Origin: Promethearchaeota archaeon
GTDB taxonomy: Archaea; Asgardarchaeota; Lokiarchaeia; Sigyniarchaeales; SOKP01
Direction: 5' to 3'
Length of the DNA stretch: 64,000 nucleotides
NCBI GenBank assembly: GCA_016839555.1
Contig: JAEOUA010000001.1
Location: 224,001-288,000, forward strand
The stretch's first letter is position 1. Every line of letters starts with the position of its first letter. Positions 25,703-53,125 of the stretch are shown here, piece by piece. The position numbers were made by a program, and so were the translations under genes. The notes under the pieces are model-generated. The model had not been told where the DNA came from. It searched no databases and saw only the letters and a program-made list of their open reading frames with translations.

Positions 25703-26524
25703 ATGAAAGAAAAAGAACTGAAAAACAAAATAGCGATTATTACTGGCGCTGCAGGAGGAATTGGAAAAGAAGTCGTCAAACTCTTTGACGAAAAAGGAAT
25801 AAAATTAGTCTTGACAGATGTTAATTTAGAGCCTCTAAAAGAATTAGAAAAGGAATTACACCAAGAGCCTCTCTTTATTTCTTGTGATATTAGAAACTTA
25901 GATGAAATTAAAGCTGTAATTTCAAAAGCAATTCAAACACACGGGAAAATCGATATTTTGGTAAATACTGTTGGAATTATTATCCCCTCTCTTTTTGAAA
26001 ATACTACTTATGAGGATATTCATAAACAAATTGATATAAATCTAATTGGCACTATTCAATTTACTAAAGAAATAATTCCTTTTATGAAGAAAGGTGGTGG
26101 AGGGAATATTGTAACTATCTCATCTTTAGCGGGAATCGTCCCTGAGACACATAGCTCAATTTATACAGCTAGCAAATTCGCATTACGAGGATTAAATTGG
26201 ACTTTGAATTTGGAATTAGAAGATCATGATATTTTTGTTTCAACAATTTTCCCCGATTCCGTCGACACTCCAATGCTCGAATATGAGGCTAAACATGGAG
26301 GTTCGCCTTTAACTTTCCTTCATGACCCAGTAGATCCTCAAAAAGTGGCGGAGGGAATTCTTAAAGCAATTTTAAAAAAGAAAGTGGAAGTATGTGTGCC
26401 GCATTCTGAGGGAATACTTTCAAAAATAATTATGTGTCTCCCAAGTCAAGTGAAGAGACTCTGGCCTAAATATGAAAAGAAGGGAGAAAAGAAACGAGAA
26501 GAATATCTAAAGAATTTAGATTAG
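25703..26524 (+). CDS. Short-chain dehydrogenase/reductase
   Basis: TGAAGGIG, IDILVN, ISSLAG, YTASK. Confidence 0.93.
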   Translation: MKEKELKNKIAIITGAAGGIGKEVVKLFDEKGIKLVLTDVNLEPLKELEKELHQEPLFISCDIRNLDEIKAVISKAIQTHGKIDILVNTVGIIIPSLFENTTYEDIHKQIDINLIGTIQFTKEIIPFMKKGGGGNIVTISSLAGIVPETHSSIYTASKFALRGLNWTLNLELEDHDIFVSTIFPDSVDTPMLEYEAKHGGSPLTFLHDPVDPQKVAEGILKAILKKKVEVCVPHSEGILSKIIMCLPSQVKRLWPKYEKKGEKKREEYLKNLD

Positions 26525-26527
26525 ACA

Positions 26528-26776
26528 TTACAATTTTTTATTAATTTTATCGAGGCTAATAGTTGCTTTATAATCAGAAAGAGTAGAATCGAAAGAAAAT
26601 CTGGCAGACGATAATAATTTTATTACATTTTTTTTAATCTTTTCTGAATACTCTGAATTAAGGAACTAACTACAGGGGAAATCAAAAACATAATAAAATG
26701 AATTAGTTTTTGAAGTTGGTTTTTTAGACACGAATTTTCCAACGGTTTATGAACAAATGCTTCAAAAAGAGAAAAT
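26528..26776 (-). pseudogene. Dead copy of the 3' end of the 27608..28912 gene
   Basis: 26521-26780 aligns without gaps to 27601-27860 (offset 1080; 52 mismatches in 260 nt by hand count, ~80%); translates IFSF*SICS*TVGKFVSKK...FDFPCS*FLNSEYSEKIKKNVIKLLSSARFSFDSTLSDY...KKL* with three internal stops. Confidence 0.9.
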
Positions 26777-26842
26777 TTTTCTATCTAAGTTCTTTTCAAG
26801 ATGATATTAATATATTTTAATAAATATTATAAAAATATCAAT

Positions 26843-27604
26843 ATGAAATCAGAAGTATATAAAAATATCAACAATATTAAGCTCCGAATGCGGATATTTG
26901 AGTCTAAAGATAGCGTATCAGAAGATTTAAAAGGAGCACTCATATTTCTCCAAGGATCTGGAGGTGCACAATTTTTTCCTCAATGCAAGTACTTTGCAAA
27001 GAGAGGTATGGTAACTCTTACAGCACAATTTCGTGTGCCAATCAGACATAAGAAATTTTGGCCATATTTTGAGAGTATTTCTGATGGAAAATCTGCCATT
27101 CGCTATATTAGAAGTAATGCTTCGAGATTTAATATTGATCCAAATAAAATTGCTGTTTCTGGTGCCTCTCAAGGCTCAATTTACGCATTAGGGTCCGCCT
27201 TAATCAAAGGTTTAGAATCTAAGGGTGAAGATCTTAATATTAGTTCAGAACCGAATGCTTTAATATTACTCAGTACGCCAATTCCATATTGGAAATTTAT
27301 TATTGATTACATTCATAAACGAAGACCCAATGAAATAACCCCTATACATCACATTAAAGAAGAACTCCCTCCTACAATTCTCATTCATTCTATCGAAGAT
27401 GCTATCGAAGATGTTAAGAAATTTACACGGAAAATGAAAGATTTAGGTGATGATTGCGAATTATTTTCATTCGAAGGTAAAGAACATGGATTTATCAAGC
27501 GTGGAAGGTCTGATGATGGGAAGTATGACAATAACCCTTATGAAAAATCACTCGTTATAATAGATAAATTCCTTTCAAGATTAGGTTATCTTATTGTGGC
27601 GTAG
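26843..27604 (+). CDS. Alpha/beta hydrolase (HSL-like esterase), possibly degenerating
   Basis: IDPNKIAVSGASQG nucleophile elbow, PPTILIH, GKEHGF; HGGG oxyanion motif absent; ORF track start is 26801, ATG 26843 preferred. Confidence 0.75.
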   Translation: MKSEVYKNINNIKLRMRIFESKDSVSEDLKGALIFLQGSGGAQFFPQCKYFAKRGMVTLTAQFRVPIRHKKFWPYFESISDGKSAIRYIRSNASRFNIDPNKIAVSGASQGSIYALGSALIKGLESKGEDLNISSEPNALILLSTPIPYWKFIIDYIHKRRPNEITPIHHIKEELPPTILIHSIEDAIEDVKKFTRKMKDLGDDCELFSFEGKEHGFIKRGRSDDGKYDNNPYEKSLVIIDKFLSRLGYLIVA

Positions 27605-27607
27605 ATA

Positions 27608-28912
27608 CTAAAATTTTTTTTTAATTTTATCAAAACTAATATCCACTATATAATCAGAAAGAGTAGAATCAAAAGAAAATGTAGCAGAGGATAATACTTT
27701 TATCACATTTCTTTTAATCTTTTCTATATAATCTGAATTAAAGAACCAACTACGAGGGAAATCGAAAACATAATAAAATAAATTAAATTTAGAATTAGGA
27801 TTCTTAGATAAAAATTTTCCAACAATCTGAGAACAAGCGCTCCAGAAAGAAAAAATATCACCTTGAACTAAAGTAGATTCATTTACAGGCTCTCGGCGAA
27901 ACTCTTTCATAGATAAAATCATCATCAACGGCAAAGTGTATTTAAATTGAATTCTGGGGTGTTCATCTCCTAAAGAACTTTGAAATTGTTTCCAATCCGT
28001 TCCAATAAGAGCAAGACCTTCCTCAATTTTTGAATAATAAAAATTTTCCGTTAAATATGGTTTCACAGTAATAAATTGAAAAATTCTTAAGGAGCATGCG
28101 ATCCTCCATTTTAAATTCTGAGTATCTAATTGGAATAAAGATTTTTCAAGATATTTCTTCTGTGATTCTTCTTTTTTAACTTTGAAGCAATGTGTAAATA
28201 CCTCAGTTAAATTTGCACATATTTCATCATAATAATAGAAATAATGATCATAAATCTGGGAGTAATTATATCCCCATATATCAACGAACGTAAAGACTTT
28301 TAATGTTTTAAATAAGATTTGAATATGATAATCAGAAATTGGTTTATTATCATCTTTTAAATCAGAATAGAGCGCGATACTTCCATAATAACTGCTCTCT
28401 CCCGTAAAAATTGTACCGATTAGTAAATGATGCTTAATTGAGATTAAGATCAATTTTTTAATAATTTTAGAGAGATTAAAGCGGTCTAAAAAGTGGTGTT
28501 CTCTGATAAGTTTTTCTGATTCAATAGTATGCCACGTTCTATTAAAGGGACGACTAAGATCATGATATAATAAAATAAGTGGAAAATAAAGAGGCTGGAA
28601 TTCATATAATTCTTCCAATTGATTTCTTAAAATTATTATATTATTTTTATTGATGTCTTTTTCAAATTGATTATTGATGATTGAAAAATAGTTATAAAGA
28701 GCGTGAAAAGTATGTCGTAAAGTTCTAAATGCCTCATATTTATCTTGCTCTATCCCTTTTATCACAAAATCAAACCATTTTGGGAAGAGAATAGAGAGCT
28801 GTTTCACCTCTTCTGAATTAATTAGATCCGTCTCTGATATTTGCCAAATATTTAAGTTAGATTCTATAAAAATCTTTTCTAGTTTCTGATAGTAATTTTT
28901 TTCTAATTCCAT
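27608..28912 (-). CDS. HD-domain protein (GlnD-type HD spacing)
   Basis: LRHT...LLYHDLSRP...WH...IKHHL...FVDIWG. Confidence 0.6.
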   Translation of the reverse strand: MELEKNYYQKLEKIFIESNLNIWQISETDLINSEEVKQLSILFPKWFDFVIKGIEQDKYEAFRTLRHTFHALYNYFSIINNQFEKDINKNNIIILRNQLEELYEFQPLYFPLILLYHDLSRPFNRTWHTIESEKLIREHHFLDRFNLSKIIKKLILISIKHHLLIGTIFTGESSYYGSIALYSDLKDDNKPISDYHIQILFKTLKVFTFVDIWGYNYSQIYDHYFYYYDEICANLTEVFTHCFKVKKEESQKKYLEKSLFQLDTQNLKWRIACSLRIFQFITVKPYLTENFYYSKIEEGLALIGTDWKQFQSSLGDEHPRIQFKYTLPLMMILSMKEFRREPVNESTLVQGDIFSFWSACSQIVGKFLSKNPNSKFNLFYYVFDFPRSWFFNSDYIEKIKRNVIKVLSSATFSFDSTLSDYIVDISFDKIKKKF

Positions 28913-28927
28913 TATAAGCGTTTTAAA

Positions 28928-30160
28928 TTATAAAAAAATCCATAAAAAAACTCCAACAATTATTCCTATAATTATAAGGAAAAAAACCCCTGCCCAAGAA
29001 AACAAGAAATTTCTTACATAATTAATTTTAAAATCTACCGCTTCATAAGGGCACAATTCAGCACAACAATAACAAAATATACATTTCTTTCTTTCCCAAC
29101 TTGGAGTATTACCCTTCTTGATTATTTCTGGTGGAGTGATCGCATTACCAGGACAATTTTCCCAACAAGTAGAGCAAAGCCTGCATTTATTTGGATCAAA
29201 TTTTATCGTAGCTCTGAACACCACATTTCCCATATAATCTGCTAACCATGATGGTAAAGGTACAGATACTGGATGCTTCCTTGGTATTTTAAATTTGCGA
29301 GAAACATCTTTTAAATTTTCCCCTAAGAATTGAATTTCCGAGATATCAGAAGTCCCAAGATTTTTTTCTACTGCTTTCTCAATATATTTAACTTTTTGTG
29401 GATCGAGCCCAATAATTTTACATACAGCGGTATCTAAGGCCACACCATCAAATCCCGCTATAATTAAATCCAACTTAACTATCTCTCCCTTGCTGGGACC
29501 TTTTCCTTCTTGACATAAATACCCATCAATTACAGTTAATTGTGGATTTGATACAGAATAAATATCGGCTAAAGCTGCAGAAAATGCATCTAAGGTTGAA
29601 AATCTCGCATGTGTTTTTGCTTTATTTCCCAAAATTAAAGTCCCAAACATATTTTTTATGCAGCAGGTTAATAATGTTTGCCAGTGGGTCTTTATTTTCG
29701 GAATATTGATAATTAAATCAGCTTCTTTTAATAATGGAGAAGAGACAAATTGCTCGAGGACTAAGGGATTTTTGACATCATATTTTATACGTTCTGTTTT
29801 TTCAAATGGAGTCCAATTTACATTTTCTTCTTGACATATCTTTTTTATTCCGCTCCCTTCAAATGCTTTTTCAGTAACTCCTGGTGATGATGTACCGCTT
29901 GATTCAGCAACGATAATATCATTCTGGTTATGATGCTTTATCCATTTTATCACCGCCCTAACTATTTCTGGATGAGTTGTTACTGCCCGCTCTGGCTCTT
30001 TACTCTTCAAAATATTAGGTTTAATTACAATCTTCATAGCATTTTTATTAAATAATGATTCTGCATTTATTAAATCAAGAGCCTCAAAGACTGCACGTTC
30101 AATCTCATTGTTTTTAATCTTCACAATCGAGATCTTATTGTTTTTCATGGGAAAGTTCAC
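28928..30160 (-). CDS. DUF362 Fe-S protein with a 2x[4Fe-4S] ferredoxin domain and C-terminal TM helix
   Basis: IKPN, TTHPE, PKIKTH, IKNMFG, EGKGP; CRLCSTCWENCP and CIFCYCCAELCP. Confidence 0.88.
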   Translation of the reverse strand: MNFPMKNNKISIVKIKNNEIERAVFEALDLINAESLFNKNAMKIVIKPNILKSKEPERAVTTHPEIVRAVIKWIKHHNQNDIIVAESSGTSSPGVTEKAFEGSGIKKICQEENVNWTPFEKTERIKYDVKNPLVLEQFVSSPLLKEADLIINIPKIKTHWQTLLTCCIKNMFGTLILGNKAKTHARFSTLDAFSAALADIYSVSNPQLTVIDGYLCQEGKGPSKGEIVKLDLIIAGFDGVALDTAVCKIIGLDPQKVKYIEKAVEKNLGTSDISEIQFLGENLKDVSRKFKIPRKHPVSVPLPSWLADYMGNVVFRATIKFDPNKCRLCSTCWENCPGNAITPPEIIKKGNTPSWERKKCIFCYCCAELCPYEAVDFKINYVRNFLFSWAGVFFLIIIGIIVGVFLWIFL

Positions 30161-30268
30161 ATTTTAAATATTAATTCATTTAAATAACAACTTTTAAAAA
30201 AAATTCTTTTTTTATTTTGGTATAATTTTATAATCTAAAAAAATCAATTGATTAAAAAGGAGATACTT

Positions 30269-30451
30269 ATGAGTGTTAATATAAAAGAAAAAAGTGTAAA
30301 AATAATTGGAATCCTTATAGCTATTATTGGAGGTTTAATTGCTTTTATCGGTGGAATAAAAATAGGAAACGCTGTTGGAAACATATGGAATATTTTCGGG
30401 GGAATGGCTCTCGCAGCTATAGGAGGACATATCACCAACCTAATTAAGTAA
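30269..30451 (+). CDS. Small two-TM membrane protein
   Basis: AAGGAG RBS before ATG 30269; two Gly-rich hydrophobic helices. Confidence 0.65.
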   Translation: MSVNIKEKSVKIIGILIAIIGGLIAFIGGIKIGNAVGNIWNIFGGMALAAIGGHITNLIK

Positions 30452-30708
30452 AATATCCTAAATTGCATCCTTTTTTTTATTTTAAATTTTTTATTAAGGA
30501 TAATAGAAATAATTTATGAAATATAGACAAGAATTTAATATATTCTCAAACTCACTTCTAAAATAAAAATAAGATTATTTAAGAAGAAAAATCAAGTACT
30601 AATTTATATAAAATAAGACCTTAGGTTTTTAATTATTATAACTATGTTTAAAAATTAATTTAGATTTTTATGATTACATAAAAAACAATTCAATAGAGGT
30701 GGAATTAA

Positions 30709-31260
30709 ATGAAACAAATGACTCAACAAAATTTAATAAATGCCTTTGGTGGCGAAAGTATGGCTCATATGAGATACCTTCATTTTTCAAATACAGCCCA
30801 AAAAGAAGGGTATCCTAATGTAGCGAGGTTATTTAAGGCGATTTCACATGCAGAATATATTCATGCTGGCGATCATTATAAGGAAATTAAACATTTAAAC
30901 GGAGGTTTTGTAGCTAATAGTATGGGTGCTTTTGGACCAGGAGATACTTATAAAAATTTAGGTTTAGGTATCGATGGGGAGACTTTCGAAATAAATGAAA
31001 TGTATCCCACTTATATTCAAACGGCTAAATTTCAAGAAGAAGGTGGAGCAGTCCGTACTTTTCAATGGTCTTTAAGCACAGAAAAAGAACATAAACGATT
31101 ATTTGAAAAAGCAAAAACTGCTGTTGATAATAATAAAGATGTAGAATTAGTTGATGTCCAAGTATGTAGTGTTTGCGGTTATACTTTAGAAGGAGGAGCG
31201 CCTGATAAATGTCCAATTTGTGGTGCTAAGAAAGAAAAATTTGTAACCTTTGAAAAATAA
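30709..31260 (+). CDS. rbr: Rubrerythrin
   Basis: AFGGES, AEYIHA, GETFE..MYP, EKEH; rubredoxin domain CSVCGY/CPICG. Confidence 0.93.
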   Translation: MKQMTQQNLINAFGGESMAHMRYLHFSNTAQKEGYPNVARLFKAISHAEYIHAGDHYKEIKHLNGGFVANSMGAFGPGDTYKNLGLGIDGETFEINEMYPTYIQTAKFQEEGGAVRTFQWSLSTEKEHKRLFEKAKTAVDNNKDVELVDVQVCSVCGYTLEGGAPDKCPICGAKKEKFVTFEK

Positions 31261-31541
31261 CCAATAAACTTTTTATTTTTTATTTTAATAAATTTTGAAA
31301 TCTATAAAATTCTGTTTATACTCAAAAGATTTTAATTAAACAAAAATCAACATGATCTTATTAAATACTTATAAATATCCCATAGTTCTTTTATATAATT
31401 CTTTAATAAAGAATAAAAATTTAAAAAAATAGGATATACAAATCCTTATTGGTAAATATATACAAGTTAAAATCATTTTATGGATTTATAACTTGTAGAT
31501 TTAACTTTTTATTTACCTAAAAAGAAACATACCCACAATAT

Positions 31542-31991
31542 TTAAGATTTTAATTTTATTCCATAATAGCTGCATAGTTCTTCATTATGCTTGGATGGAG
31601 AAACTGTCTCATATGTTTTTTCAATATTCCAATCTTCGTTAATTAACCATGTTCTACGTTTAACTCTGCCTTGAGAAATTGCCCCAAAAGCTTTTGCTGC
31701 CTTTTTTTCTGGATCTGATAATAAAGTAAAAGGTAAATCATATTTAGTTTGAAAATTTTTATGCGATTTCACGGAATCAGCACTTATCCCAATTATAGTT
31801 ATATCTTTTTCCTCATACTCTTTAATTGAATCTCGGAAATTTGTCGCTTCTGTAGTACAACCTGGTGTGTTATCTTTGGGATAGAAGTATACTACTAATT
31901 TTTTTCCTTTATAATCATTGAGTTTTACTAAATCTCCATTTTGATTCAGCAATTCGATATCCTCTGGTGCCGGATCTCCTTTTTTTAACAT
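31542..31991 (-). CDS. bcp: Bcp/PrxQ peroxiredoxin
   Basis: YFYPKDNTPGCT, GISADS, LLSDP; GGAGGT RBS before ATG 31991. Confidence 0.92.
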   Translation of the reverse strand: MLKKGDPAPEDIELLNQNGDLVKLNDYKGKKLVVYFYPKDNTPGCTTEATNFRDSIKEYEEKDITIIGISADSVKSHKNFQTKYDLPFTLLSDPEKKAAKAFGAISQGRVKRRTWLINEDWNIEKTYETVSPSKHNEELCSYYGIKLKS

Positions 31992-32260
31992 ATATTTTAC
32001 CTCCAATTAATATTGTTCTTCTATTAATATTTGTTTTATTTCTGTGAGAAAAAAGATATTTAAAATTAAATATAATTTGGTTTTAAAATATACATAACTC
32101 CAGTTAGAGTCGTATATCAATAAATCTTTCTTTTTAATATTTTAATATTTTAAAAAATGGTGATTCTTACAAGATCTTAGGTTTCTAATTCTTATTCTTT
32201 TTTATTTAGTTTGCTATAATTTCCATAGCTTTTAAAATAATTATTCTTTTTTACTTTATT

Positions 32261-32959
32261 ATGAACTTAAAAACAATATTAAAAAAACCATTTGAAAAAC
32301 TTTCACTGCCCTATTGGGGGATTATTGCTATCATTATTCTTGCCATAGGTTCTTTAGTTCCTTCAATCGCTTATTCAGGAAAGGATGGAGAAGCTTATAG
32401 TTTTCTTAACCATGCAATCTCAGAGCTTGGAGAACTGGGAGTCTCTGAATTAGCAATTCTATTTAACATTTGTGTATTTTTTGGAGCTCTATTTACATTG
32501 ATTTTCTTTATAGGATTATCTTTTTATATCAATAACATAATTTCCTCGATTGGGGGAATAATCGGAGTAATTTCATCACTAGGTGGGGTTTTTGTGGGGA
32601 TCTTTCCCATGAATTACCTTGTTCCCCATTATATTGCTGCTATGACTTTCTTTTTTGGAGGAATGCTTACCGTTGCCGTATTCTCAATCGCTATTCTTTT
32701 TGATAAAGAGAAAAAAATACATTGGATTTTCTCTCTTCTAGGGTTTATCGTGGTGGTATTTTTTGCTTTATTCTTGTTTTATCCATATGCTGAGACTTAT
32801 CGTGTTAATCCTGCATTAAGTATTTTGTATAATCTCTTTTATGATCGTCCCGCATTTTTATTGCCCTCCTTTTTCGAATGGATGACACTGATCACCATTA
32901 TGATTTGGGTTGGATTACTTTCTATAGTATTTTTAATCAAAAAAGTTAATCTTATCTAA
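32261..32959 (+). CDS. DUF998-like multi-pass membrane protein
   Basis: YSFLNHAISELG, FN, VGIFP, H, FEW. Confidence 0.75.
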   Translation: MNLKTILKKPFEKLSLPYWGIIAIIILAIGSLVPSIAYSGKDGEAYSFLNHAISELGELGVSELAILFNICVFFGALFTLIFFIGLSFYINNIISSIGGIIGVISSLGGVFVGIFPMNYLVPHYIAAMTFFFGGMLTVAVFSIAILFDKEKKIHWIFSLLGFIVVVFFALFLFYPYAETYRVNPALSILYNLFYDRPAFLLPSFFEWMTLITIMIWVGLLSIVFLIKKVNLI

Positions 32960-33097
32960 CTTTTTTTTATTTTTTAATCTGAACTGTTTTTACATTTTAA
33001 ATATGCTAAAAGACCCAAAAAGAATCTAATTACCTGTAATAGTTAAAAAAAGAAAAAACAAAGGAAATATTAAAAAAATTTTAAAATAAGGATTTTA

Positions 33098-33352
33098 TTA
33101 CACTCCGCCAGCTTGAGTGGCCATCACGGTAATTACATCCTTCTTTGGGTGAATCCCAACTTTAGAAAACTTTAAGTCGTCAGGCAATACTTTTCCCTTG
33201 AAGATAAATTGAATTGCGAGCACTGGATTTAGTTTATATTCTTGCTGGACAGTTTTTTTAATATCAGCAATATTCTGACTTGGATCCACTTCGATTTGCT
33301 TAATTGCTTGATCTGGAGGAACTCCAGTTAATCGAAACCTATATTGTGTCAT
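33098..33352 (-). CDS. Eukaryote-type ubiquitin-like protein ending GG-V
   Basis: Beta-grasp pattern IEVDPSQNIADIKKTV...QFIFKGKVLPDD...; C-terminus TQAGGV; GAGGT RBS. Confidence 0.85.
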   Translation of the reverse strand: MTQYRFRLTGVPPDQAIKQIEVDPSQNIADIKKTVQQEYKLNPVLAIQFIFKGKVLPDDLKFSKVGIHPKKDVITVMATQAGGV

Positions 33353-45589: not shown

Positions 45590-45596
45590 TTTTTAC

Positions 45597-46610
45597 TCAC
45601 CTCACAGGAGGTCTTAAAAATTCTAAATCTCTAAGATTATATAGTCTCTTAGCTCCTATTTTTGTTAGATATTCATCAAAATCATTAAGACTATATACCC
45701 ATTCATCTAACCATCTTTCTATAACTTGCGGATCATTATCCCTTCCTGCGGCTAAATAGTCTTCGGTAAATTGATGATCGAAATAATACTTATAAGGCAT
45801 GTTTCCTGGGTGGGATCCCCACGGTTGTTCTATAACGGCATCAACCATATAGAAAGGAATTATAGTTTTTCCAGGGTCAGCTCTTATTTTTTCGTCACTA
45901 ATCAATTCTTCACATGTTACTATCACTCTTTTAGAAGCTCTTGCTTGTAAATCATCCTTGACTATATGGCCATCAATTTGAACGTCTCCATACATATCTG
46001 CTTTATGAGCGTGTATAATACATACATCTGGGTTAAGTGAAGGGAGTAATAATACTTTCTCTCCTGTAAATGGACATTTTACTACCTTTCCTGGAGAATG
46101 CATCATTGTATCAGTACCTAACATTACTTTAACTGGAATAAATGGAACACCCTGAGCGCCAGCTCTTATTCTATATGACATTGCCCCATTAGTATAATCT
46201 GCCTTTTTTACCTCTCCGCTTTCAAAAAGCCTTCTCTGAACCCCAGAAAGGCCTCTTAATTCGAATCCTACTACATATGCTATATCAACATTAGAAACAC
46301 ATCCTCCTGCCATTAATACATCTATATCTTGCACAGCAGTATGTCCAGCTACAGATAAATTTTTAATTTTTTGTCTTACAATCTCATAAATTAATGCCAT
46401 TGGAATCCTTATATGCCCAAATCCTCCAATAGCAATATAATCTCCATCTTTGACGAATTTTTTGATTGCATCTTTTATTCTCATGCGTTTATCGATTAAA
46501 GCACGAGGTTTATTTATTCTTGTCCAATTTCTTATTTCTGTAGGTGTATTTTTACAAAAGATCTCTCCTGTCCCTTCTTTCAGAATTTTCATTTCAGATA
46601 TTTTTAACAC
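45597..46610 (-). CDS. Family I CoA-transferase alpha subunit (GctA-like)
   Basis: VKDGD.IAIGGF, PMALIYEI, AGAQGVPF, IHAHKADMYG, GSHP; start may be ATG 46592. Confidence 0.9.
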   Translation of the reverse strand: MLKISEMKILKEGTGEIFCKNTPTEIRNWTRINKPRALIDKRMRIKDAIKKFVKDGDYIAIGGFGHIRIPMALIYEIVRQKIKNLSVAGHTAVQDIDVLMAGGCVSNVDIAYVVGFELRGLSGVQRRLFESGEVKKADYTNGAMSYRIRAGAQGVPFIPVKVMLGTDTMMHSPGKVVKCPFTGEKVLLLPSLNPDVCIIHAHKADMYGDVQIDGHIVKDDLQARASKRVIVTCEELISDEKIRADPGKTIIPFYMVDAVIEQPWGSHPGNMPYKYYFDHQFTEDYLAAGRDNDPQVIERWLDEWVYSLNDFDEYLTKIGAKRLYNLRDLEFLRPPVR

Positions 46611-46968
46611 CTTTTGTTTATGAATCTTTTCTAAGTATTAAAATGAATAATTTCATTAATAAATTTATTTAAAACATTAATTATATTCATAAAGACAATA
46701 TTTCTTGTCAATATGATAAAATTTTTTAACTTTATAAAAGAATTGCTAAGTATTAATGAGATAAGGCATTTAATTATGATTAAATTCAAATACTACTTAC
46801 TTGTAAGAATAAAAATGAATATTTTTTATTAGATTGCTTATAATGAGAAAGATTTACTGTTTAATAACCATTTTCTCGTTATTTTTATTAAGTTTTTTGG
46901 AACTTTTAAAAAATATACAAATGGTATATTTAGGATATTATATTTACTAAAACAAACTGATTTTAAAA

Positions 46969-47517
46969 ATGCCAATAATTATACCTAGTCCTAGGACGGG
47001 AAAAACACCTCAGATTCATGAAAATGTGTTTATTGCTCCTAATGCTGTAATTATCGGGGATGTTCATTTAAAGGAGGGCGTAAATGTATGGTTCGGAGCC
47101 GTTTTAAGGGCTGAATGGGGCACAATCCAAGTAGGGAAGAACACAAGTATCCAAGAGCATGTAACAATTCATATAGAAGTAGGAAAATCAGCTATAATCG
47201 GCTCTGATTGCATTATTGGGCATCATGCGATGATTCATGGACCTTGTGAGATTGCAGATGGCTGTTTGGTAGGAATTGGTTCACAAGTATTACATAATTC
47301 TAAATTAGGAGAAGGATGCGTACTAGCAGCAGGAGCAGTTTTGTTAAATAAAGAAATTCCACCTCGAAGTTTAGCAGTCGGTATACCCGCAACTGTTAAA
47401 AAAGAAGGAATTTATAGCGGAAAGTTGGAAGGATCAAAAACCTCAGGGGAATATGCTAAAAACGGGGCTTACTTTAAAAAGTACTTTCAAGATAATCCAG
47501 ATTCAGTCAATATTTAA
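46969..47517 (+). CDS. Gamma-carbonic anhydrase/PaaY-CaiE family hexapeptide-repeat protein
   Basis: IAPNAVIIGDV, VWFGAVLR, three His (TIH, IGH, MIHG), AVGIPA. Confidence 0.9.
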   Translation: MPIIIPSPRTGKTPQIHENVFIAPNAVIIGDVHLKEGVNVWFGAVLRAEWGTIQVGKNTSIQEHVTIHIEVGKSAIIGSDCIIGHHAMIHGPCEIADGCLVGIGSQVLHNSKLGEGCVLAAGAVLLNKEIPPRSLAVGIPATVKKEGIYSGKLEGSKTSGEYAKNGAYFKKYFQDNPDSVNI

Positions 47518-47586
47518 TCTTTTTCTCTTTTTCCATCGCTTAAGCCCTTTATATTAAAAGTTTATAGTTGTTATATAACTTCTCTC

Positions 47587-48321
47587 TTAATGAGAGCAAA
47601 TACACGCATCATTTTTTACCACATCGATTTTATTGAAACTCATATCCAGGAGGTTAACCATTAGCAACTTGTTTTCCAAATTTGGCAGCCCTAACACTGT
47701 TTTAATTACTTCCAATGCTTCCATAGTACCTAGGATTCCCGGAGTAGCCCCAAGAACAGGTAAAGGAGATATACTAACTCGTTCAGTTACAGGTTCTGAA
47801 AATACACACTGATAGCACGCACTTGTTTTTGGGTCTACAGTAATGATCTGACCATAGAAGTCCTTTATTCCCGCTATTACACAATGAATTCCTTTTTGGA
47901 CCGCAATTCGATTGATTAAAAATTTTGTTTTCATATTATCGCTACAATCCACAATAAAATCCTTATTTTGGGCATATTTTTGCATAGATTCTTCGGTTAC
48001 ATAATCTTTGTGGGCGTAAATAGATACATTGGAATTTAATGCGGTTAATCTTTTTTCCGCTATTCGGACCTTATCTTTTTCTATATCTTCTTCCGTATAA
48101 AGTATTTGACGGTGTAGATTTGATAAGGAGATGGTATCATTATCAATTATAGTAAGTTCTCCGATACCTGCTGCTACTAAATAAAATGCGCACGATGATC
48201 CGAGTCCACCGGCTCCAATTTGAAGGACTTTAGTTTGTGATAATTTTTCTTGCCCCTCTTCTCCAATAGATTTCGAAATTATTTGTCTTGAATACCTTTC
48301 TTTTTCTTTTTCATTTAACAT
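47587..48321 (-). CDS. ThiF/MoeB (E1-like) adenylyltransferase
   Basis: RYSRQI, IGAGGLG, DNDTISLSNLHRQ, VDCSDN, ACYQC; no Cys in the crossover loop. Confidence 0.92.
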   Translation of the reverse strand: MLNEKEKERYSRQIISKSIGEEGQEKLSQTKVLQIGAGGLGSSCAFYLVAAGIGELTIIDNDTISLSNLHRQILYTEEDIEKDKVRIAEKRLTALNSNVSIYAHKDYVTEESMQKYAQNKDFIVDCSDNMKTKFLINRIAVQKGIHCVIAGIKDFYGQIITVDPKTSACYQCVFSEPVTERVSISPLPVLGATPGILGTMEALEVIKTVLGLPNLENKLLMVNLLDMSFNKIDVVKNDACICSH

Positions 48322-48582
48322 TCTAAAAATTCCTTTTAATTCTTTAAATTATGGCATCTAATATAATCTATATGTTTTAAATTACTTTTGAATAAACTAA
48401 ATCAATTAATAAATAGCGTTTATATTAATTTTATTTTAACGGTTTTTTCTGATTACTTTTAATTATTTGATATTATTTTTATTTAGAAGACAAGAATACC
48501 ACTTTTCTTCTAAATAATGAATCTATTAAATTTATGGAATCTAATAAGAAGGAGAATTTACTATATTTTAAAATAGGTGGTA

Positions 48583-48786
48583 TTATTTGTTATTAAAAGC
48601 TTTTGTACCGTTAAAACTTCTTGTTCTAGTATTCCAAGAGGGACTTCTTAATTTTGTGGTTCTACCAAACCCGCAGCTCGCACAATATCCTTTCCTTCTA
48701 TGGAATGAATGGTTCCCACAACGTCGACAAGTAGTATGTGTTGCTGTTTTATTTTTCTTTCCTTTACTAGCGGTTCCTTTTCCCAT
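48583..48786 (-). CDS. rpl37e: Large-subunit ribosomal protein eL37
   Basis: [24 protein letters not shown]; GGGGGA RBS. Confidence 0.96.
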
Positions 48787-48800
48787 ATTAAATCCCCCCT

Positions 48801-49121
48801 TTAATATCCCTCTTCATCTGGTTCTTCTTGATATCTAATCTTTCTTTTCCCTTCATCCTCATCAATATCTCCAGTAAATAGTAATTTCTCACGATCTTGT
48901 CCAATAAATATAATTGATGCTCCCCGAATCATGACAGTACCAAGGGCTTTGCTTCGTTTACCCCCTCTCCCAAAATAGATCTCTTTGGCATCTTCAACGA
49001 TTAAATTCATATAGTTATCGAATTTTACTAATTTTCCCGTGAGGTAGGTATTCCATATTTTCAGTTTTATACGCACTTTTTCCTTTAAAATTGCCTTGCT
49101 CAATGTTCGAGAAATTGCCAC
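48801..49121 (-). CDS. Sm/Lsm-like protein with an acidic C-terminal tail
   Basis: Sm1 motif [12 protein letters not shown], Sm2 motif IRGASI; canonical archaeal position upstream of rpl37e; GTG start. Confidence 0.9.
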
Positions 49122-49636
49122 GTGTCAGAACCTTTTGTTTATGATAAAAAAGATTAAACTTTGAAATGAGTTAGTATTACTAAATATTTGTGGTTTATTA
49201 ATTTTACACTTTATGAGTTTGATGAGAAAGATTATTCTTTCTTGATTATATTGAATATTGATTCTTTTAAGCCTTTGAAGAAGCCACAGACTTTTTCGGC
49301 TATTGCTCGACATCTGCGCAAGTAATACAAGATATTTCTTTGCATCAATTAATCGGGTGTATAGTACTGGAAGGAACATTTTTAAATTTATTATGAAGAT
49401 CATAAGTAAGTAATAAATTTTATATCACACTTATCCTCAAAAATGATAAATGGATTCTCTTTAATTTGCTATTTACAAAACGTTTTAATTCTTTTAATCT
49501 ATAAGAAAGCATATCATTAAAAATAATAAGATATAACCAAGTTAAATTATCATCATCTCTATGATTATTCATTATTTTTTTAAATTTTAAAAGATTTTAT
49601 ATTAAAGAACGCTTAAAATAGGATGGGGTAAAAAAA

Positions 49637-50674
49637 TTGAAAAAGATCGCAATTATAGACGCTTGTGTGGATACGCCCGAAGAAATCATACTTGCGGGAG
49701 ACTTAGATGCTTATAGACTTTTTGGAGATCCTTCTATAGCCCCTACTACTGCGGATGAACATGTTCCTGCGTCTCACTGTGTATGGACACGAAATATTTT
49801 AGAGCAAGGATTAAGGGGCCTACCTAATGATATTGTAGGCTTGGTATCAACGCATGGATGTGACTGTACAAATCGTCAATTTGATATCTGGTTAGATACC
49901 GTTGATTTAGATTTTATGTATTTTTTGAATTCTCCATTGAAAAGAGACCAAACAGCGAAAGACTTTTTTATTCAAGATATGAAAGAGTTAATCAGACAAT
50001 TAGAAGACCATTTTAATATTGAAATTACTGACCAAAAATTAAGAGAACAAATTGTATTAATGAATAAAATTCGCAGAAAACTCAAAGAACTCTCCGAATA
50101 TAGAACTAAAATGATGTTGAAATTCTCAGAATTACATCAATTAATAAAATCGACCTTGACGACCGATAAAACTCACGCTTTACAAATGTTGAATGAAAAA
50201 TTAGAGGAGCTAAAAACCAGGGAATCATTTTCGGATGAAAGTTTAAAGCATGTATTATTAACGGGATCCGTAATTGATGATAATTCATTCGTAAAAAATA
50301 TTGAAAATGCCGGCTTTCATATTGTTATAGATGATATGTGTATAGGAACGCATTATTTTTGGAATACAATGGATGAATCGGGCGATCCTCTGGAAGCGAT
50401 CGCGAACTATCATTTTGAAAAACCCATTTATTCTACAAAAGTTCCCTCTCATCAAAGGTTTAAGTTCATAGAAAGCCTCATTGATAAATATCAAGTGGAC
50501 GGAGTTATCAATATCGCGCAGAAATTTTGTGAATCAATTCTCTATGATCATCCTTTCCTGAGCGATAAATTTAGACAGAATAAGATGCCATATCTATTTG
50601 TAGAAAAAGAATATAATCGGGAAGCATACAAACAACTCTCAACCAGGTTTGATGCGTTTGCCGAAATAATTTAA
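49637..50674 (+). CDS. 2-hydroxyacyl-CoA dehydratase/BcrC-like subunit (HgdB-type)
   Basis: PEEII.AG, SHCVW, HGCDC, DDMCIG, DGVI..QKFCE, TRFDAF. Confidence 0.85.
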   Translation: MKKIAIIDACVDTPEEIILAGDLDAYRLFGDPSIAPTTADEHVPASHCVWTRNILEQGLRGLPNDIVGLVSTHGCDCTNRQFDIWLDTVDLDFMYFLNSPLKRDQTAKDFFIQDMKELIRQLEDHFNIEITDQKLREQIVLMNKIRRKLKELSEYRTKMMLKFSELHQLIKSTLTTDKTHALQMLNEKLEELKTRESFSDESLKHVLLTGSVIDDNSFVKNIENAGFHIVIDDMCIGTHYFWNTMDESGDPLEAIANYHFEKPIYSTKVPSHQRFKFIESLIDKYQVDGVINIAQKFCESILYDHPFLSDKFRQNKMPYLFVEKEYNREAYKQLSTRFDAFAEII

Positions 50675-50684
50675 GTGGTGAAAT

Positions 50685-51944
50685 ATGACAACTCAAGAAG
50701 AACCAATACGACGAAAAGTATTGGATGCAACAATGGGCTTGAAAAATATTATGGGCCGTCACTATCTTGCTGTTGAGCAAGCTTATAGAGATGGTAAGCC
50801 AACTGCATGGGCAACCTCTGGGACTCCTGTAGAACTTTTATATGCGATGGATGTACAACCCATGTTGCCAGAAAATTCGGCGACAATTTCAGCTGCCCAA
50901 CATTTTTCTAAAGATTTCATTGAAACAGCTGAAGAGCAAGGATTTTCCTATGATTTATGCTCGTATTTTAAAACCAATATTGGAGCTGTTGCAAACAAGG
51001 CTGATATGTTAAAGGGAGGTACCAGAAAACCTACTTTTATGCTTTCGAGTGATGTGATCTGTGATACTCACGTTGATTGGTTTCAAACGCAAGCGGAACG
51101 TATGAATGTTCCTCATTTTATTATTGATGTACCGCATATAGTTAGTAATACAAATCAGAGACAATACGAGTATTACAAAAAATATGTCAGCAAGCAACTT
51201 TGGGAATTTATGGAGTTTGTAGAAGAAATCACGGGGCATGAAATAAATATGGAGAAAGCAAAAGAAGTGGCTAAAAACTCTTATGAATTAGGAATTCTCT
51301 GGCAAGATATCTTTGAACTTAGAAAGAATATCCCGTGTCCCGTCTCTACACGAGATACATTTGGGGGTCTTTTTCCCCTCTTTACAATGACCGGACTTAA
51401 AGCCCCAATCCGCCTTTATAAACGAATGTATAAAGAAGCTAAAGATAGAGTAGAGAATGGAATTGGTGCGTTGAGAGAGGAGAAATTTCGGCTTGCCTTC
51501 GAAGGAATCCCTTTCTGGTATAATCTAAAATTCTTTTCCAAATTGGAGCAATGGGGAGCCATAATAGTATATGAAACTTATACTTATGCGTTCAGCAAAT
51601 ATGTGAATCCCAATATTACAAGAGACATGGTACTGAATCAACCTATTGAAGCAATGTCAGAATTAATGCTTAAATTTTGGTATATTTATGATTTACAAAC
51701 AAGAATAAAAAAATATAAGGAAATGGTTGATGATTGGAAAGTAGATGGGGTTTTGCTCCATAATAATATGTCATGTCGACCAAATTCATGTGGACTTTAT
51801 GATTTAAAACGCCACTTACAAGAGGATTATGATATCCCATGCTTAATAATAGATTGTGATATGAATGATCCCAGAAAAATGAATGAGACGCAAATTGAAA
51901 ATAAATTATCCAGCTTTTTCGAAATTTTGGAAGAACGAAAATAA
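50685..51944 (+). CDS. 2-hydroxyacyl-CoA dehydratase/BcrB-like subunit (HgdA-type)
   Basis: PVELLYAMD, PEN, DLCSY, ICD, DGVLLH..SCRP, DCDMNDPR. Confidence 0.88.
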   Translation: MTTQEEPIRRKVLDATMGLKNIMGRHYLAVEQAYRDGKPTAWATSGTPVELLYAMDVQPMLPENSATISAAQHFSKDFIETAEEQGFSYDLCSYFKTNIGAVANKADMLKGGTRKPTFMLSSDVICDTHVDWFQTQAERMNVPHFIIDVPHIVSNTNQRQYEYYKKYVSKQLWEFMEFVEEITGHEINMEKAKEVAKNSYELGILWQDIFELRKNIPCPVSTRDTFGGLFPLFTMTGLKAPIRLYKRMYKEAKDRVENGIGALREEKFRLAFEGIPFWYNLKFFSKLEQWGAIIVYETYTYAFSKYVNPNITRDMVLNQPIEAMSELMLKFWYIYDLQTRIKKYKEMVDDWKVDGVLLHNNMSCRPNSCGLYDLKRHLQEDYDIPCLIIDCDMNDPRKMNETQIENKLSSFFEILEERK

Positions 51945-52103
51945 TTTACTTTTTTCTTAAAATAATATTTTTTCTTCTTCTTACTTAATATCTTATCTAT
52001 TTTTTATAATTTTGATTAAGACTAATTTTTGAATAAGATTTACTAAGATAAAAAAATGAAATTTATGAGATAATTTATAAAAATCTCAGAACCTATATTA
52101 TCT

Positions 52104-52556
52104 TTATATCAAAATATTCTTTCTATTACTATTCAAGGTTTTAATAAATGTATTTATCTCAGAATTGAAATCTTCCCATATTGTTGGTAAATTTTCTGCG
52201 AGTGGAATTAATTTTTCTTTTTCTAATTTAACGCCATAACCATGAGTAAAAAAGTGGCGAAATGCGAGATATTCATTTAATTTATTTGAGAGTTCTTTAC
52301 TAATTATATTTTTATCAACGGATAAATCTAATAAATCTTTATGCCAAGATTTTGAGGAAGGAATAGATATCCCTTTAAATTTTAAAATTCTTTTAAGAGA
52401 ATTTTCTATACCACTATATGTATTTTGGAGAAATGTAGCGATAGCTGCTAATTCTATGATGGTCATTTCCCTCCGTTTCATTGCTTCTTCTAAAGCATCA
52501 AGAGTTGTTTCCATTTGCTCTTTTTCAGCTTCTATTTCATTGATAAATCTATCCAT
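52104..52556 (-). CDS. HEPN-domain RNase toxin (HepT-like)
   Basis: Rx4H motif FRHFFTHGY; SWHKDLL; overlaps the upstream MNT gene. Confidence 0.88.
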   Translation of the reverse strand: MDRFINEIEAEKEQMETTLDALEEAMKRREMTIIELAAIATFLQNTYSGIENSLKRILKFKGISIPSSKSWHKDLLDLSVDKNIISKELSNKLNEYLAFRHFFTHGYGVKLEKEKLIPLAENLPTIWEDFNSEINTFIKTLNSNRKNILI

Positions 52557-52815
52557 AAATTTTGATACTATTTTCTTTAATTAATTCATTAAATAAGGAT
52601 TTATGTGATAAATCGATAAGATCTACAGGTTTTGGAAGATTTCTTATTAATTCCCCATAAAATTTAAAAAAAGAACTTGGTTTAATACCTTTCACAGCAA
52701 GATCTATATCGTTATAATCATGTTGATTTAAGGCAGACCCAAATAAATAAACTGAAGAAACGGAATATTTTTTCGCATAATGGATAATAATTTCTTTTTC
52801 GGTTTCACTTATCAT
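52549..52815 (-). CDS. Minimal nucleotidyltransferase (MNT) antitoxin
   Basis: YLFGS...NDIDLAV, VDLID. Confidence 0.9.
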   Translation of the reverse strand: MISETEKEIIIHYAKKYSVSSVYLFGSALNQHDYNDIDLAVKGIKPSSFFKFYGELIRNLPKPVDLIDLSHKSLFNELIKENSIKIYG

Positions 52816-53008
52816 ATTAGAAGAATTCTTTGTTGAAATTTAAAATCATGATAATAGAAATTTCTAATCTTATAAATAAATGATATATTTCTTAAAAAAA
52901 TCTTTATCTCTTTTTAATGAATCATTTTTTTTTAAATTCCGACCAATTTTCAAGTTTGTTTACTAATTCATCATTATCAAATTCTAAAGTATCAAAAAAT
53001 TTTTAATT

Positions 53009-53121
53009 AAAGAAATGGTTAATGAGTGGAATGTGATATGAACGATCCTCGAAAGATGAATGAAACGCAAATAGAAAATAAATTGAGTAGCTTTTTTGAG
53101 ATATTAAAACAGCGAAAATAA
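53009..53121 (+). pseudogene. Dead copy of the 3' end of the 50685..51944 gene, with an internal deletion
   Basis: 53032-53121 aligns to 51855-51944 (offset 1177; 17/90 nt differ; 27/29 aa identical: CDMNDPRKMNETQIENKLSSFFEILKQRK*); 53009-53035 encodes KEMVNEWNV, matching KEMVDDWKV at 51717-51743. Confidence 0.9.
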
Positions 53122-53125
53122 TGAG

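What the first reader, a model, noticed from the sequence alone, without database searches (positions are those of the whole stretch)
26521..53121. Recurrent integrase-free '3'-end replacement' insertions: two loci with identical geometry
Seen: two unrelated loci share one layout: intact gene A, then cargo on the opposite strand (tail to tail), then a dead ~80%-identical copy of A's 3' end, then the stop of a convergent neighbour only 3-4 nt away. Locus 1: HD gene, hydrolase cargo, remnant 26528-26776, SDR stop 26524, offset 1080. Locus 2: dehydratase, MNT-HEPN cargo, remnant 53009-53121, longin-like stop 53126, offset 1177. Neither locus shows an integrase, transposase, terminal inverted repeats or exact target-site duplication. 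Inference: the remnant abutting the neighbour is the original 3' end. It was displaced when a ~1.1-1.3 kb piece from a related lineage (orthologous 3' end plus cargo) recombined in, either by single crossover of a small circle or by homology-facilitated illegitimate recombination, which leaves gene A intact. Two cases in 64 kb suggest this could be a routine gene-acquisition route in this lineage, with cargo hitchhiking on the tails of core genes.
Basis: partly seen in the sequence, partly recalled or inferred. Interest (0 to 1): 0.8.

Follow-up and report, generated by a model that had tools for sequence, protein, structure and literature searches.

The report
Displaced gene tails beside inserted cassettes
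In this Asgard archaeon, small accessory genes (mostly toxin-antitoxin pairs) have been slipped in directly behind core genes, each with a second copy of the gene's last 100-300 bases left alongside and no integrase. This is a recombination scar of a kind known in bacteria; I found no paper describing it in archaea.

Summary
An intact core gene is followed by a 0.8-1.9 kb cargo and then a dead or orphan copy of that gene's 3' end (79-91% nt identity). Repeat spacing is 1.06-1.94 kb.

Five of the eight cargos are toxin-antitoxin pairs (HEPN/MNT, PIN). The whole genome holds one tyrosine recombinase. I found no tRNA, no Rfam RNA, no terminal inverted repeats and no shared end motif.

Two metagenome contigs from sister lineages carry the empty site of locus 1: gene A stop, 3 nt, SDR stop. 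Three congeners lack the locus 2 cargo.

At locus 2 and at the best extra locus (C2), the differences between live tail and remnant are strongly synonymous. The two copies therefore diverged as working genes in separate lineages. Locus 1 fits either that history or an in-place duplication followed by decay.

Best reading: cassette gain anchored by homology in the gene tail (one-sided or Campbell-type recombination), with addiction modules surviving best. [quoted passage not shown]

This scan has already noted the same layout in several bacterial genomes. It is a new member of a known kind, of moderate interest. "Routine in this lineage" is not shown: 0 of about 24 MNT loci in congeners have flanking repeats.

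The parts
25703..26524 (+). Conserved neighbour of locus 1: short-chain dehydrogenase (SDR). Its TAG stop (26522-26524) is the first 3 nt of the repeat.
   Evidence: Pfam adh_short E 1e-51. 92% aa identical and syntenic in L060; 3 nt from the gene A stop in L059/L060.
26522..26776 (-). Remnant 1: orphan copy of the last 83 codons of gene A plus 6 nt, with 3 in-frame stops.
   Evidence: 81% nt identity over 255 nt, ungapped, offset 1080. 73% aa identity, E 2e-30. Stops seen.
26777..27601 (+). Insert 1 (825 nt): AT-rich promoter-like leader and alpha/beta-hydrolase ORF (26801-27604). The ORF ends on the TAG that belongs to the repeat.
   Evidence: Pfam BD-FAE/Abhydrolase_3. GxSxG motif seen in the translation. 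No homologue in the genus. Best relatives are bacterial at 40% identity or less. Absent from L059/L060.
27608..28912 (-). Gene A of locus 1: intact 434-aa protein. Some homologues are named HD-domain protein by their source; Pfam is silent. Its live tail (the repeat copy) is 27602-27856.
   Evidence: DUF362-A-SDR synteny is conserved in congeners and in L059/L060.
50685..51944 (+). Gene A of locus 2: intact 2-hydroxyacyl-CoA dehydratase D-component (419 aa). Its live tail (the repeat copy) is 51852-51945.
   Evidence: Pfam HGD-D E 2e-70. 89% aa identical to the syntenic G005 gene.
52104..52815 (-). Cargo 2: HepT-like HEPN toxin (52104-52556) and MNT nucleotidyltransferase antitoxin (52549-52815). 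The two ORFs overlap by 8 nt.
   Evidence: Pfam HepT-like_2 E 2e-24 and Polbeta E 2e-10. No close homologue in relatives; best is 40% in another genus.
52937..53002 (-). Relic of a different antitoxin gene (16 of 22 aa match the C-terminus of the antitoxin in the C5 cassette). It is a trace of an earlier cassette in the same slot.
   Evidence: blastn 80% over 74 nt, the only other hit in the genome. tblastn E 9e-8.
53008..53122 (+). Remnant 2: orphan copy of the end of the HGD-D gene (last 31 codons plus stop, preceded by a 27-nt piece). It has an internal deletion of about 115 nt.
   Evidence: 81% over 94 nt, offset 1177; 27-nt piece at offset 1292. 27 of 31 aa identical. Codon-position differences 5/1/14, including a TCC/AGT serine codon switch.
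53126..53566 (-). Conserved neighbour of locus 2: 146-aa protein of a multi-copy Asgard family (no Pfam hit). Its stop lies 4 nt from the remnant's stop. SepF follows.
   Evidence: The SepF-146aa-...-HGD synteny holds in G005, G003 and G001.

Best explanation
Both loci are scars of recombinase-free cassette gain in a slot just behind a core gene.

DNA carrying a homologous copy of the core gene's 3' end next to an accessory gene or gene pair recombined with the chromosome through that homology. The route was either a one-sided homologous crossover with an illegitimate join at the far end (HFIR) or a single crossover of a small circle (Campbell-type insertion-duplication). The core gene stays whole, the cargo lands tail to tail behind it, and a second copy of the tail is stranded next to the old neighbour, where it decays by stops and deletions.

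The source was a related Asgard lineage about 10-20% diverged at the nucleotide level. Toxin-antitoxin cargo dominates, probably because addiction modules resist loss through recombination between the two repeat copies.

Shown: the repeat geometry, the empty sites, absence of the cargo from relatives, the lack of integrases, the recurrence, and synonymous-biased divergence at locus 2 and at C2.

Inferred: the recombination route, the intermediate, which tail is native, and the role of addiction.
For: Geometry and significance.

Empty sites: L059 and L060 show A stop, 3 nt, SDR stop, within a 12-kb syntenic block whose shared proteins are 84-98% aa identical apart from gene A and one poorly conserved neighbour. 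G006 has A and SDR 26 nt apart. G005 and G002 have the empty site for the C2 locus.

Cargo absent from congeners.

Recurrence, eight loci in all: W1, W2, C2:33809-35954, C5:125805-128937, C5:120301-121657, C6:50363-53426, C10:315907-318185, C3:51572-55039. Units are 1.06-1.94 kb. Five of the eight cargos are TA pairs.

Live-versus-remnant differences by codon position: W2 5/1/14 with only 4 aa changes in 31 and a TCC/AGT serine switch; C2 5/2/23 with no stop in 90 codons. In-place duplication plus neutral decay predicts at least as many changes at positions 1+2 as at position 3. Binomial P = 0.0026 (C2), 0.039 (W2), and 0.0045 for the four long cases pooled.

The live tail is closer to tails in other genomes than to its own remnant: W1 87% against 81%, W2 82% against 79%, C5a 91.5% against 87% aa.

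There is one PF00589 recombinase in 3.74 Mb, no tRNA or Rfam RNA, and no motif shared by the eight inserts.

In 51-nt segments of locus 1, the remnant is the more diverged copy at its 5' end and the live tail at its 3' end. This is the hybrid pattern expected from a crossover inside the tail (my own 2x2 estimate gives P of about 0.04, suggestive only).
Against: Locus 1 alone does not reject in-place duplication. Remnant-specific changes are 6/6/11 by codon position with 3 stops. Its per-site change (9%) matches the third-position change of the live tail.

At locus 1 the repeat seems to run through the neighbour's stop codon. This points to a primary event that duplicated the recipient's own target.

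No donor-type arrangement (same cargo behind an orthologous gene) was found in any other genome.

No remnant-type allele closer than the live tail was found in 5.8 billion proteins.

No clear microhomology is visible at the junctions.

A relic of a C5-type antitoxin gene behind a different core gene shows that cassettes also reach non-orthologous sites. Homology in the tail cannot explain that.

Homologous recombination at 80-90% identity over 100-300 nt is expected to be inefficient (general knowledge).

Read-level support for the assembly was not available.
Confidence: 0.6

Rival explanations
1. Insertion with long target duplication, in place. Foreign DNA was joined illegitimately at two staggered points 100-300 nt apart in the recipient's own gene tail. 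Both copies started identical and diverged afterwards, the live one under selection and the orphan neutrally. This is the pattern Kobayashi's group described for restriction-modification genes.
For: Locus 1 fits. Remnant-specific changes are 6/6/11 by codon position with 3 stops, live-specific changes are 2/1/7, and the implied ages match. The four-point distance sums weakly pair live with remnant. The repeat includes the SDR-type stop codon, which the hydrolase ORF uses as its own. The cargo has only bacterial relatives, so a related Asgard donor is not evident. A primary illegitimate event is needed anyway to bring a cassette to a new gene.
Against: C2 (5/2/23) and W2 (5/1/14, with a serine codon-family switch) have far too many third-position differences for a neutral orphan. 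In C2 the live branch has 13 third-position changes against 13 changes over all 270 sites of the remnant. In the published RM cases I read in Table 3, the two repeats are more alike than either is to the empty target, for example 417/423 against 345/370 (PMC2853133). Here the reverse holds.
Confidence: 0.25
2. These are degenerate integrative elements. Each was inserted by a site-specific integrase into the 3' end of its target gene, bringing a replacement end as tRNA-targeting islands do. The integrase gene was later lost or acts in trans.
For: The layout (intact target, element-borne replacement end, displaced old end) is what such elements produce (established knowledge).
Against: There is one tyrosine recombinase in the genome, yet eight unrelated targets. 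No exact core is shared by the two copies at a boundary, and no motif is common to the inserts. Inserts are only 0.8-1.9 kb and are filled by the cargo ORFs. There is no tRNA.
Confidence: 0.05
3. Assembly artefact: two strain alleles of the same region were stitched in tandem in a metagenome-assembled genome.
For: The genome is a MAG-like assembly (12 contigs, 6.4% contamination). The remnants at C2 and C5a are still open reading frames.
Against: Remnants 1 and 2 are pseudogenes (3 stops; a 115-nt deletion), not live alleles. Copies at 79-91% identity would not be collapsed or chained by an assembler. Each remnant has a sharp junction with unique cargo sequence. The same layout occurs at 8 loci on 6 contigs.
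Confidence: 0.04
4. Decayed tandem paralogue: the remnant is what is left of a second full gene copy, most of which has been deleted.
For: The HGD-D family has several paralogues nearby. The genome holds many tandem paralogue arrays.
Against: Each remnant matches only its adjacent gene and only its 3' end. It stops at or within about 120 nt after the stop codon. Sister lineages have a single copy abutting the neighbour. The cargo is absent from relatives.
Confidence: 0.04

Closest known systems
Homology-facilitated illegitimate recombination (HFIR) in transformable bacteria (de Vries & Wackernagel 2002; Prudhomme et al. 2002; Meier & Wackernagel 2003; cited via PMC5361080)
   Same: A homologous anchor on one side only brings in non-homologous DNA. 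No element-encoded recombinase is involved. Short pieces of foreign DNA are acquired.
   Different: It has been shown experimentally only in bacteria with natural competence. Here the host is an Asgard archaeon, DNA uptake is unknown, no junction microhomology was seen, and the outcome is a duplication of the recipient's tail rather than the deletion I recall as more usual.
C-terminal (3'-end) displacement at Rhs, CDI and T6SS effector-immunity loci (Jackson et al. 2009; Koskiniemi et al. 2014; Kirchberger et al. 2017, PMC5361080)
   Same: An incoming module carries the conserved part of the gene plus new downstream genes. The old 3' end is pushed downstream and left as an orphan. There is no integrase, and events repeat at one site.
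   Different: In those loci the displaced tips are variable toxin domains with their immunity genes, and diversity of the tip is the point. Here the tails are orthologous ends of ordinary metabolic genes, and the payload is unrelated cargo behind the gene.
Insertion with long target duplication of restriction-modification gene complexes (Nobusato et al. 2000; Furuta, Abe & Kobayashi 2010, PMC2853133)
   Same: Small selfish 'addiction' gene pairs are flanked by direct repeats of tens to hundreds of bp that correspond to one copy in the empty-site genome. There are no mobility genes.
   Different: In the rows I read (Table 3), the published repeats are nearly identical to each other and less like the empty target. 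Here the copies are 79-91% identical and, at two loci, differ mostly at synonymous sites. [quoted passage not shown]
Integrative elements that target the 3' end of tRNA or protein genes and carry a replacement end
   Same: The target gene stays intact, with a replacement end on the element and the displaced end on the far side.
   Different: Those elements need an integrase and an exact core at both junctions. Neither is present here.
Earlier notes of this scan on bacterial genomes (TA cassettes bracketed by duplicated moaA, dnaE, flgC, sdhB or ettA tails)
   Same: Same layout and same dominant cargo class (TA pairs), with no recombinase and recurrent hits at one slot.
   Different: All of those are bacteria, and they are unchecked AI notes. 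This is the first case among the notes I retrieved that is archaeal, with eight loci in one genome.

Membership tests
HFIR-type / Campbell-type homology-anchored insertion | Homology between incoming DNA and recipient on one side only (the gene tail); the other junction is non-homologous | tested here: met
   Similarity starts and stops sharply. It ends between 13 nt before and about 120 nt after the stop codon. Flanks on the cargo side are unrelated.
HFIR-type / Campbell-type homology-anchored insertion | The two homologous copies derive from different lineages (donor and recipient) | tested here: inconclusive
   Met at W2 and C2 (synonymous-biased differences). Compatible but not required at W1 and C5a.
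HFIR-type / Campbell-type homology-anchored insertion | Microhomology of a few bases at the illegitimate joint | tested here: inconclusive
   No clear microhomology was seen by eye at the eight boundaries. At 80-90% identity the exact joint cannot be placed.
HFIR-type / Campbell-type homology-anchored insertion | Empty-site allele in close relatives | tested here: met
   L059/L060 and G006 for W1. G005 and G002 for C2. Cargo-free G001/G003/G005 for W2.
HFIR-type / Campbell-type homology-anchored insertion | DNA uptake route and circular or linear intermediate | not testable with these tools
   Needs reads or experiments.
Insertion with long target duplication (Kobayashi type) | Direct repeats longer than 30 bp flank the insert and match a single copy in the empty-site genome; no mobility gene | tested here: met
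   W1: 255-nt repeat, single copy in L059/L060. No integrase or transposase-like ORF in the insert.
Insertion with long target duplication (Kobayashi type) | The two repeats are each other's closest relatives (both derive from the recipient's own target) | tested here: not met
   W1: live-remnant 81% against live-L059 87%. W2: 79% against 82% to G005. C2 and W2 differences are synonymous-biased. W1 could still fit if the event is old.
Site-specific integrative element | Integrase in the element or enough integrases in the genome | tested here: not met
   One PF00589 match in 3.74 Mb, on another contig. The inserts are filled by cargo ORFs.
Site-specific integrative element | Exact core sequence shared by both junctions | tested here: not met
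   No exact core at a boundary in W1 or W2.
Integron gene cassette | attC recombination site at the cassette end and an IntI platform | not tested
   No attC model was run. The spacer behind the cargo ranges from 3 nt (W1) to 443 nt (C5a), so no constant attC-sized element is present. The only tyrosine recombinase is elsewhere.
Type II toxin-antitoxin module (the cargo of locus 2) | Two small adjacent or overlapping genes with toxin and antitoxin domains | tested here: met
   HepT-like_2 (E 2e-24) and Polbeta/MNT (E 2e-10), overlapping by 8 nt. Activity was not tested.

The most novel reading that the evidence does not exclude
Asgard archaea may have a recombinase-free cassette traffic addressed by homology. 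A unit of 'gene tail plus cargo' would pop out as a 1-2 kb circle by recombination between the two tail copies, then re-enter the same gene in another lineage by a single crossover. Toxin-antitoxin pairs would act as the stabilising payload, and the same route would fix genes of bacterial origin, such as the locus 1 hydrolase, behind core genes.
Probability: 0.15. Interest if true: 0.7.

Novelty: new member of a known kind. Interest (0 to 1): 0.45.

Why it matters
How Asgard archaea take up and fix foreign genes, bacterial ones included, bears on models of eukaryote origins. Their known mobile elements are few.

These scars give dated, sequence-level evidence that small accessory genes enter behind core genes by host recombination alone. 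They also show that related lineages 10-20% diverged still exchange DNA.

The displaced tails are a practical marker. They can be counted in any genome to measure this kind of gene gain, and their decay gives a relative age for each event.

For toxin-antitoxin biology, they show one way such modules can move without a vehicle.

Tried and rejected
- Integrase in trans: only one PF00589 match in the genome.
- tRNA or structured-RNA attachment site: none.
- Common end motif or shared sequence among the eight inserts: none, apart from one antitoxin relic shared by W2 and C5a.
- Gene A remnants in the equivalent slots of congeners: none.
- Donor-type arrangement: the hydrolase has no homologue in the genus, and its best relatives among 185k species are bacterial at 40% or less. 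The HepT cargo's best match is 40%, in another genus.
- A 'live' remnant-type allele, sought in 5.8 billion proteins for C5a and C2: nothing closer than the genome's own live tail. Inconclusive.
- Mosaic break in the live genes against G005: no visible discontinuity; the outgroup is too distant.
- G006 context for C5a: not syntenic, uninformative.
- Same layout at MNT loci of five congeners: 0 of about 24 loci within ±1.5 kb.
- My first intergenic-only tblastn screen missed C2 and C5a because their remnants are still ORFs of more than 70 aa. The blastn self-comparison found them.
Full report
**What is there**

The window is G000:C4:224001-288000 of a 3.74-Mb, 12-contig, 29.6% GC genome. Homologues of its proteins are named Promethearchaeota or Lokiarchaeota by their sources, so this is an Asgard archaeon.

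*Locus 1*
- An intact 434-aa gene (27608-28912, minus strand) ends 3 nt from the stop of an intact alpha/beta-hydrolase ORF (26801-27604, plus strand).
- 25 nt beyond the hydrolase start lies a 255-nt ungapped copy of the gene's last 83 codons plus 6 nt (26522-26776). It is 81% identical and has 3 in-frame stops.
- The remnant's stop codon lies 3 nt from the stop of a conserved SDR gene.

*Locus 2*
- An intact HGD-D dehydratase gene (50685-51944) is followed by a HepT-HEPN/MNT pair on the opposite strand.
- Next comes a 115-nt copy of the gene's end (53008-53122). The last 94 nt are 81% identical, 27 of 31 codons are kept, and about 115 nt have been deleted internally.
- The remnant ends 4 nt from the stop of a conserved 146-aa gene.

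**Is it more than chance, and does it recur?**

The two repeats score E 2e-62 and 1e-16 in a whole-genome self-comparison. That comparison, read against a simple ORF map, gives six more loci with the same layout:

| Locus (genome coordinates) | Core gene | Remnant | Cargo |
|---|---|---|---|
| C2:33809-34501 | ATP-grasp subunit of ADP-forming acyl-CoA synthetase | 272 nt, 89%, still an ORF | NTase + HEPN |
| C5:125805-127157 | FAD oxidoreductase | 298 nt, 91%, still an ORF | PIN + 90-aa partner |
| C5:121262-121657 | LMW phosphatase | internal fragment | HepT + MNT |
| C6:52329-53426 | CoA-transferase | 74 nt, 89% | PIN and RHH genes |
| C10:317733-318185 | 150-aa ORF (no Pfam match) | 129 nt, 83% | 492-aa ORF |
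| C3:53642-55039 | phosphoglucomutase | about 200 nt, 86% | MFS transporter |

- All eight units are 1.06-1.94 kb long, and five cargos are toxin-antitoxin pairs.
- A protein-level screen of the first and last 100 residues of every gene against its ±6 kb surroundings finds 12 genes with a C-terminal fragment downstream on the same strand. Five of these are over 70% identical and are loci already listed above. It also finds comparable numbers of other fragment classes, mostly low-identity relics in paralogue arrays. The tail-downstream class is therefore clear but not overwhelming.
- About four loci show the mirror image, a duplicated 5' end or promoter around a one-gene cargo.

**Empty sites**
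- *Locus 1, congeners.* The order DUF362 - gene A - SDR is kept. G006 has A and SDR convergent, 26 nt apart. G002 and G004 hold an orthologous 187-aa rubredoxin-like membrane ORF in the slot, and G005 holds a DUF6935 ORF. None has a gene A remnant.
- *Locus 1, metagenome.* Two contigs from a single metagenome (L059, L060) are much closer: gene A is 86-87% nt identical, and the SDR and DUF362 are 88-90% nt identical. L060 is collinear over 12 kb. Both show gene A stop, 3 nt, SDR stop, with no hydrolase and no second tail.
- *Locus 2.* G005, G003 and G001 keep SepF - 146-aa gene - (a second paralogue) - HGD-D, without HEPN/MNT.
- *Locus C2.* G005 and G002 have the gene followed directly by the large downstream gene.
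- *Cargo.* The cargos have no close homologue in 40 relatives. The hydrolase's best relatives among 185,579 species are bacterial: Planctomycetota 40%, Bacteroidales 36%.

**In-place duplication or import?**

If the two copies arose in place and the orphan then drifted, differences at codon positions 1+2 should at least equal those at position 3. The observed counts (positions 1/2/3) are:

| Locus | Differences | Other features |
|---|---|---|
| C2 | 5/2/23 | no stop in 90 codons |
| W2 | 5/1/14 | 4 aa changes in 31, AGA/CGA and TCC/AGT synonymous switches |
| C5a | 9/3/14 | no stop in 94 codons |
| W1 | 10/12/25 | 3 stops |

- Binomial tests against a 1:1 expectation give P = 0.0026, 0.039, 0.42 and 0.39, and 0.0045 pooled.
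- With G005 as outgroup, C2's live branch has 13 changes, all at third positions. Its remnant branch has 13 changes spread 5/2/6. The branches are equal in length, and the live gene has too many silent changes for the orphan's overall rate.
- At C2 and W2 the copies therefore diverged mainly as parts of working genes, that is, in different lineages.
- The live tails are also closer to tails elsewhere than to their own remnants: W1 87% (L059) against 81%; W2 82% (G005) against 79%; C5a 91.5% (P0003) against 87% aa.
- Locus 1 by itself is undecided. Remnant-only changes are 6/6/11, and their per-site amount (9%) equals the silent change of the live tail, as an old in-place duplication would give.
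- The locus 1 repeat also appears to include the SDR-type stop codon (live TAT-CTA, remnant TGT-CTA, L059 TGG-CTA), and the hydrolase ORF ends on that codon. This points to a primary event that duplicated a real A-SDR junction, in this lineage or in a donor.
- Cut into 51-nt segments, the locus 1 remnant is the odd one out at its 5' end (69-78% to L059/L060, against 82-90% for the live tail). The live tail is the odd one out in the last segment (72-78% against 80-82%). This is the mirror pattern a crossover inside the tail would leave. My own 2x2 estimate on these counts gives P of about 0.04, so it is suggestive only.

**What it is not**
- *Not integrase-driven.* There is one tyrosine recombinase in the whole genome and eight unrelated targets. 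No exact core, terminal inverted repeat or common motif was found, and no tRNA or Rfam RNA.
- *Not a tandem paralogue.* Each remnant matches only the adjacent gene's end, and sister lineages have one copy.
- *Unlikely an assembly artefact.* Two remnants are pseudogenes, junctions are sharp, and the pattern is on six contigs. Reads were not available to confirm this.

**How it most likely works**

My best account (0.6) is homology-anchored cassette gain:
1. DNA from a related lineage carries the gene's end next to a cargo.
2. It pairs with the recipient's gene.
3. One crossover there, plus either an illegitimate join (HFIR) or closure of a small circle (Campbell insertion-duplication), leaves gene - cargo - second tail - old neighbour.

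Convergent gene ends are tolerant landing places, which explains the tail-to-tail geometry. Addiction modules would resist loss by recombination between the repeats, which explains why they dominate what survives.

A relic of a C5-type antitoxin gene next to remnant 2, and the different occupants of the locus 1 slot in congeners, show repeated turnover at the same slots. They also show that cassettes reach non-orthologous genes, so some primary illegitimate insertions, possibly with long target duplication, must occur as well (rival, 0.25).

**Comparison with what is known**
- The process resembles HFIR and the 3'-end displacement seen at Rhs, CDI and T6SS loci (PMC5361080).
- It also resembles 'insertion with long target duplication' of restriction-modification genes (PMC2853133). 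In that paper's Table 3 rows that I read, the repeats were nearly identical, and no archaeal case passed the screen.
- This scan's own notes record the same layout, mostly with toxin-antitoxin cargo, in several bacterial genomes (unchecked notes).
- My paper searches turned up no description of it in archaea.
- I file it as a new member of a known kind.

**Limits**
- No donor arrangement was found, and no junction microhomology.
- There are no read data.
- The claim that this is routine in the lineage is not supported. None of about 24 MNT loci in five congeners has flanking repeats within ±1.5 kb, though those assemblies are fragmented.

Noticed in passing
genome C6:6-1378, 15576-15831, 22102, 23239, 23312 (outside the window): A 37-nt CRISPR repeat forms arrays of 19 and 4 copies. 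Three further solo copies lie between successive MNT/HEPN-like gene pairs (20388-21276, 22436-23070, 23399-24264). A 571-nt direct repeat at 90.5% identity ends on a CRISPR repeat. Toxin-antitoxin cassettes seem interleaved with CRISPR repeats.
   Followed up: partly
window 52937-53002 (-): Relic of the C-terminus of an antitoxin gene like the one in the C5:128054-128326 cassette. It lies between the MNT start and remnant 2, so an earlier, different cassette occupied this slot.
   Followed up: yes
window 53008-53034 versus 51716-51742: Remnant 2 carries an internal deletion of about 115 nt, seemingly between short similar motifs (TGGAA.GT / GAT). This would be deletion-driven decay of the orphan tail.
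   Followed up: partly
genome C8:53529/55092, C9:29075/30101, C5:23548/24895, C4:300325/305557: Mirror-image cases: 56-149 nt duplicates of a gene's promoter or 5' end bracket a one-gene cargo (one is another alpha/beta hydrolase), or in one case eight small genes including a PIN protein.
   Followed up: partly
L006:920-1483, L004:2809-3372, L002:518-1015 (congeners, slot between gene A and SDR): The same convergent slot holds different genes in different species: a 187-aa rubredoxin-like membrane protein in G002 and G004 (72% identical to each other), a DUF6935 protein in G005, and nothing in G006. It is a long-lived variable slot.
   Followed up: partly
L063:1096-1317 (G001): A fragment 57% identical to the HEPN cargo of the C2 locus lies on the other side of the orthologous ATP-grasp gene in congener G001, between it and the upstream gene.
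   Followed up: no
window 26801-27604: The hydrolase cargo has its nearest detectable relatives in bacteria (Planctomycetota 40%, Bacteroidales 36%) and none in the genus. It is a candidate inter-domain import. Its annotated ORF may really start at the second ATG (26843), leaving an AT-rich promoter-like 66 nt.
   Followed up: partly
L059 and L060 (one metagenome, Ga0102944): Two distinct sister lineages of this organism (gene A bodies 90% nt identical to each other) coexist in one sample. Diverged partners for recombination are therefore present together in nature.
   Followed up: partly
genome C11:290213-291467: Possible ninth case: a 25-aa and a 16-aa match (56-69% identity) to the C-terminus of a 207-aa gene, about 550 nt downstream on the same strand.
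   Followed up: no
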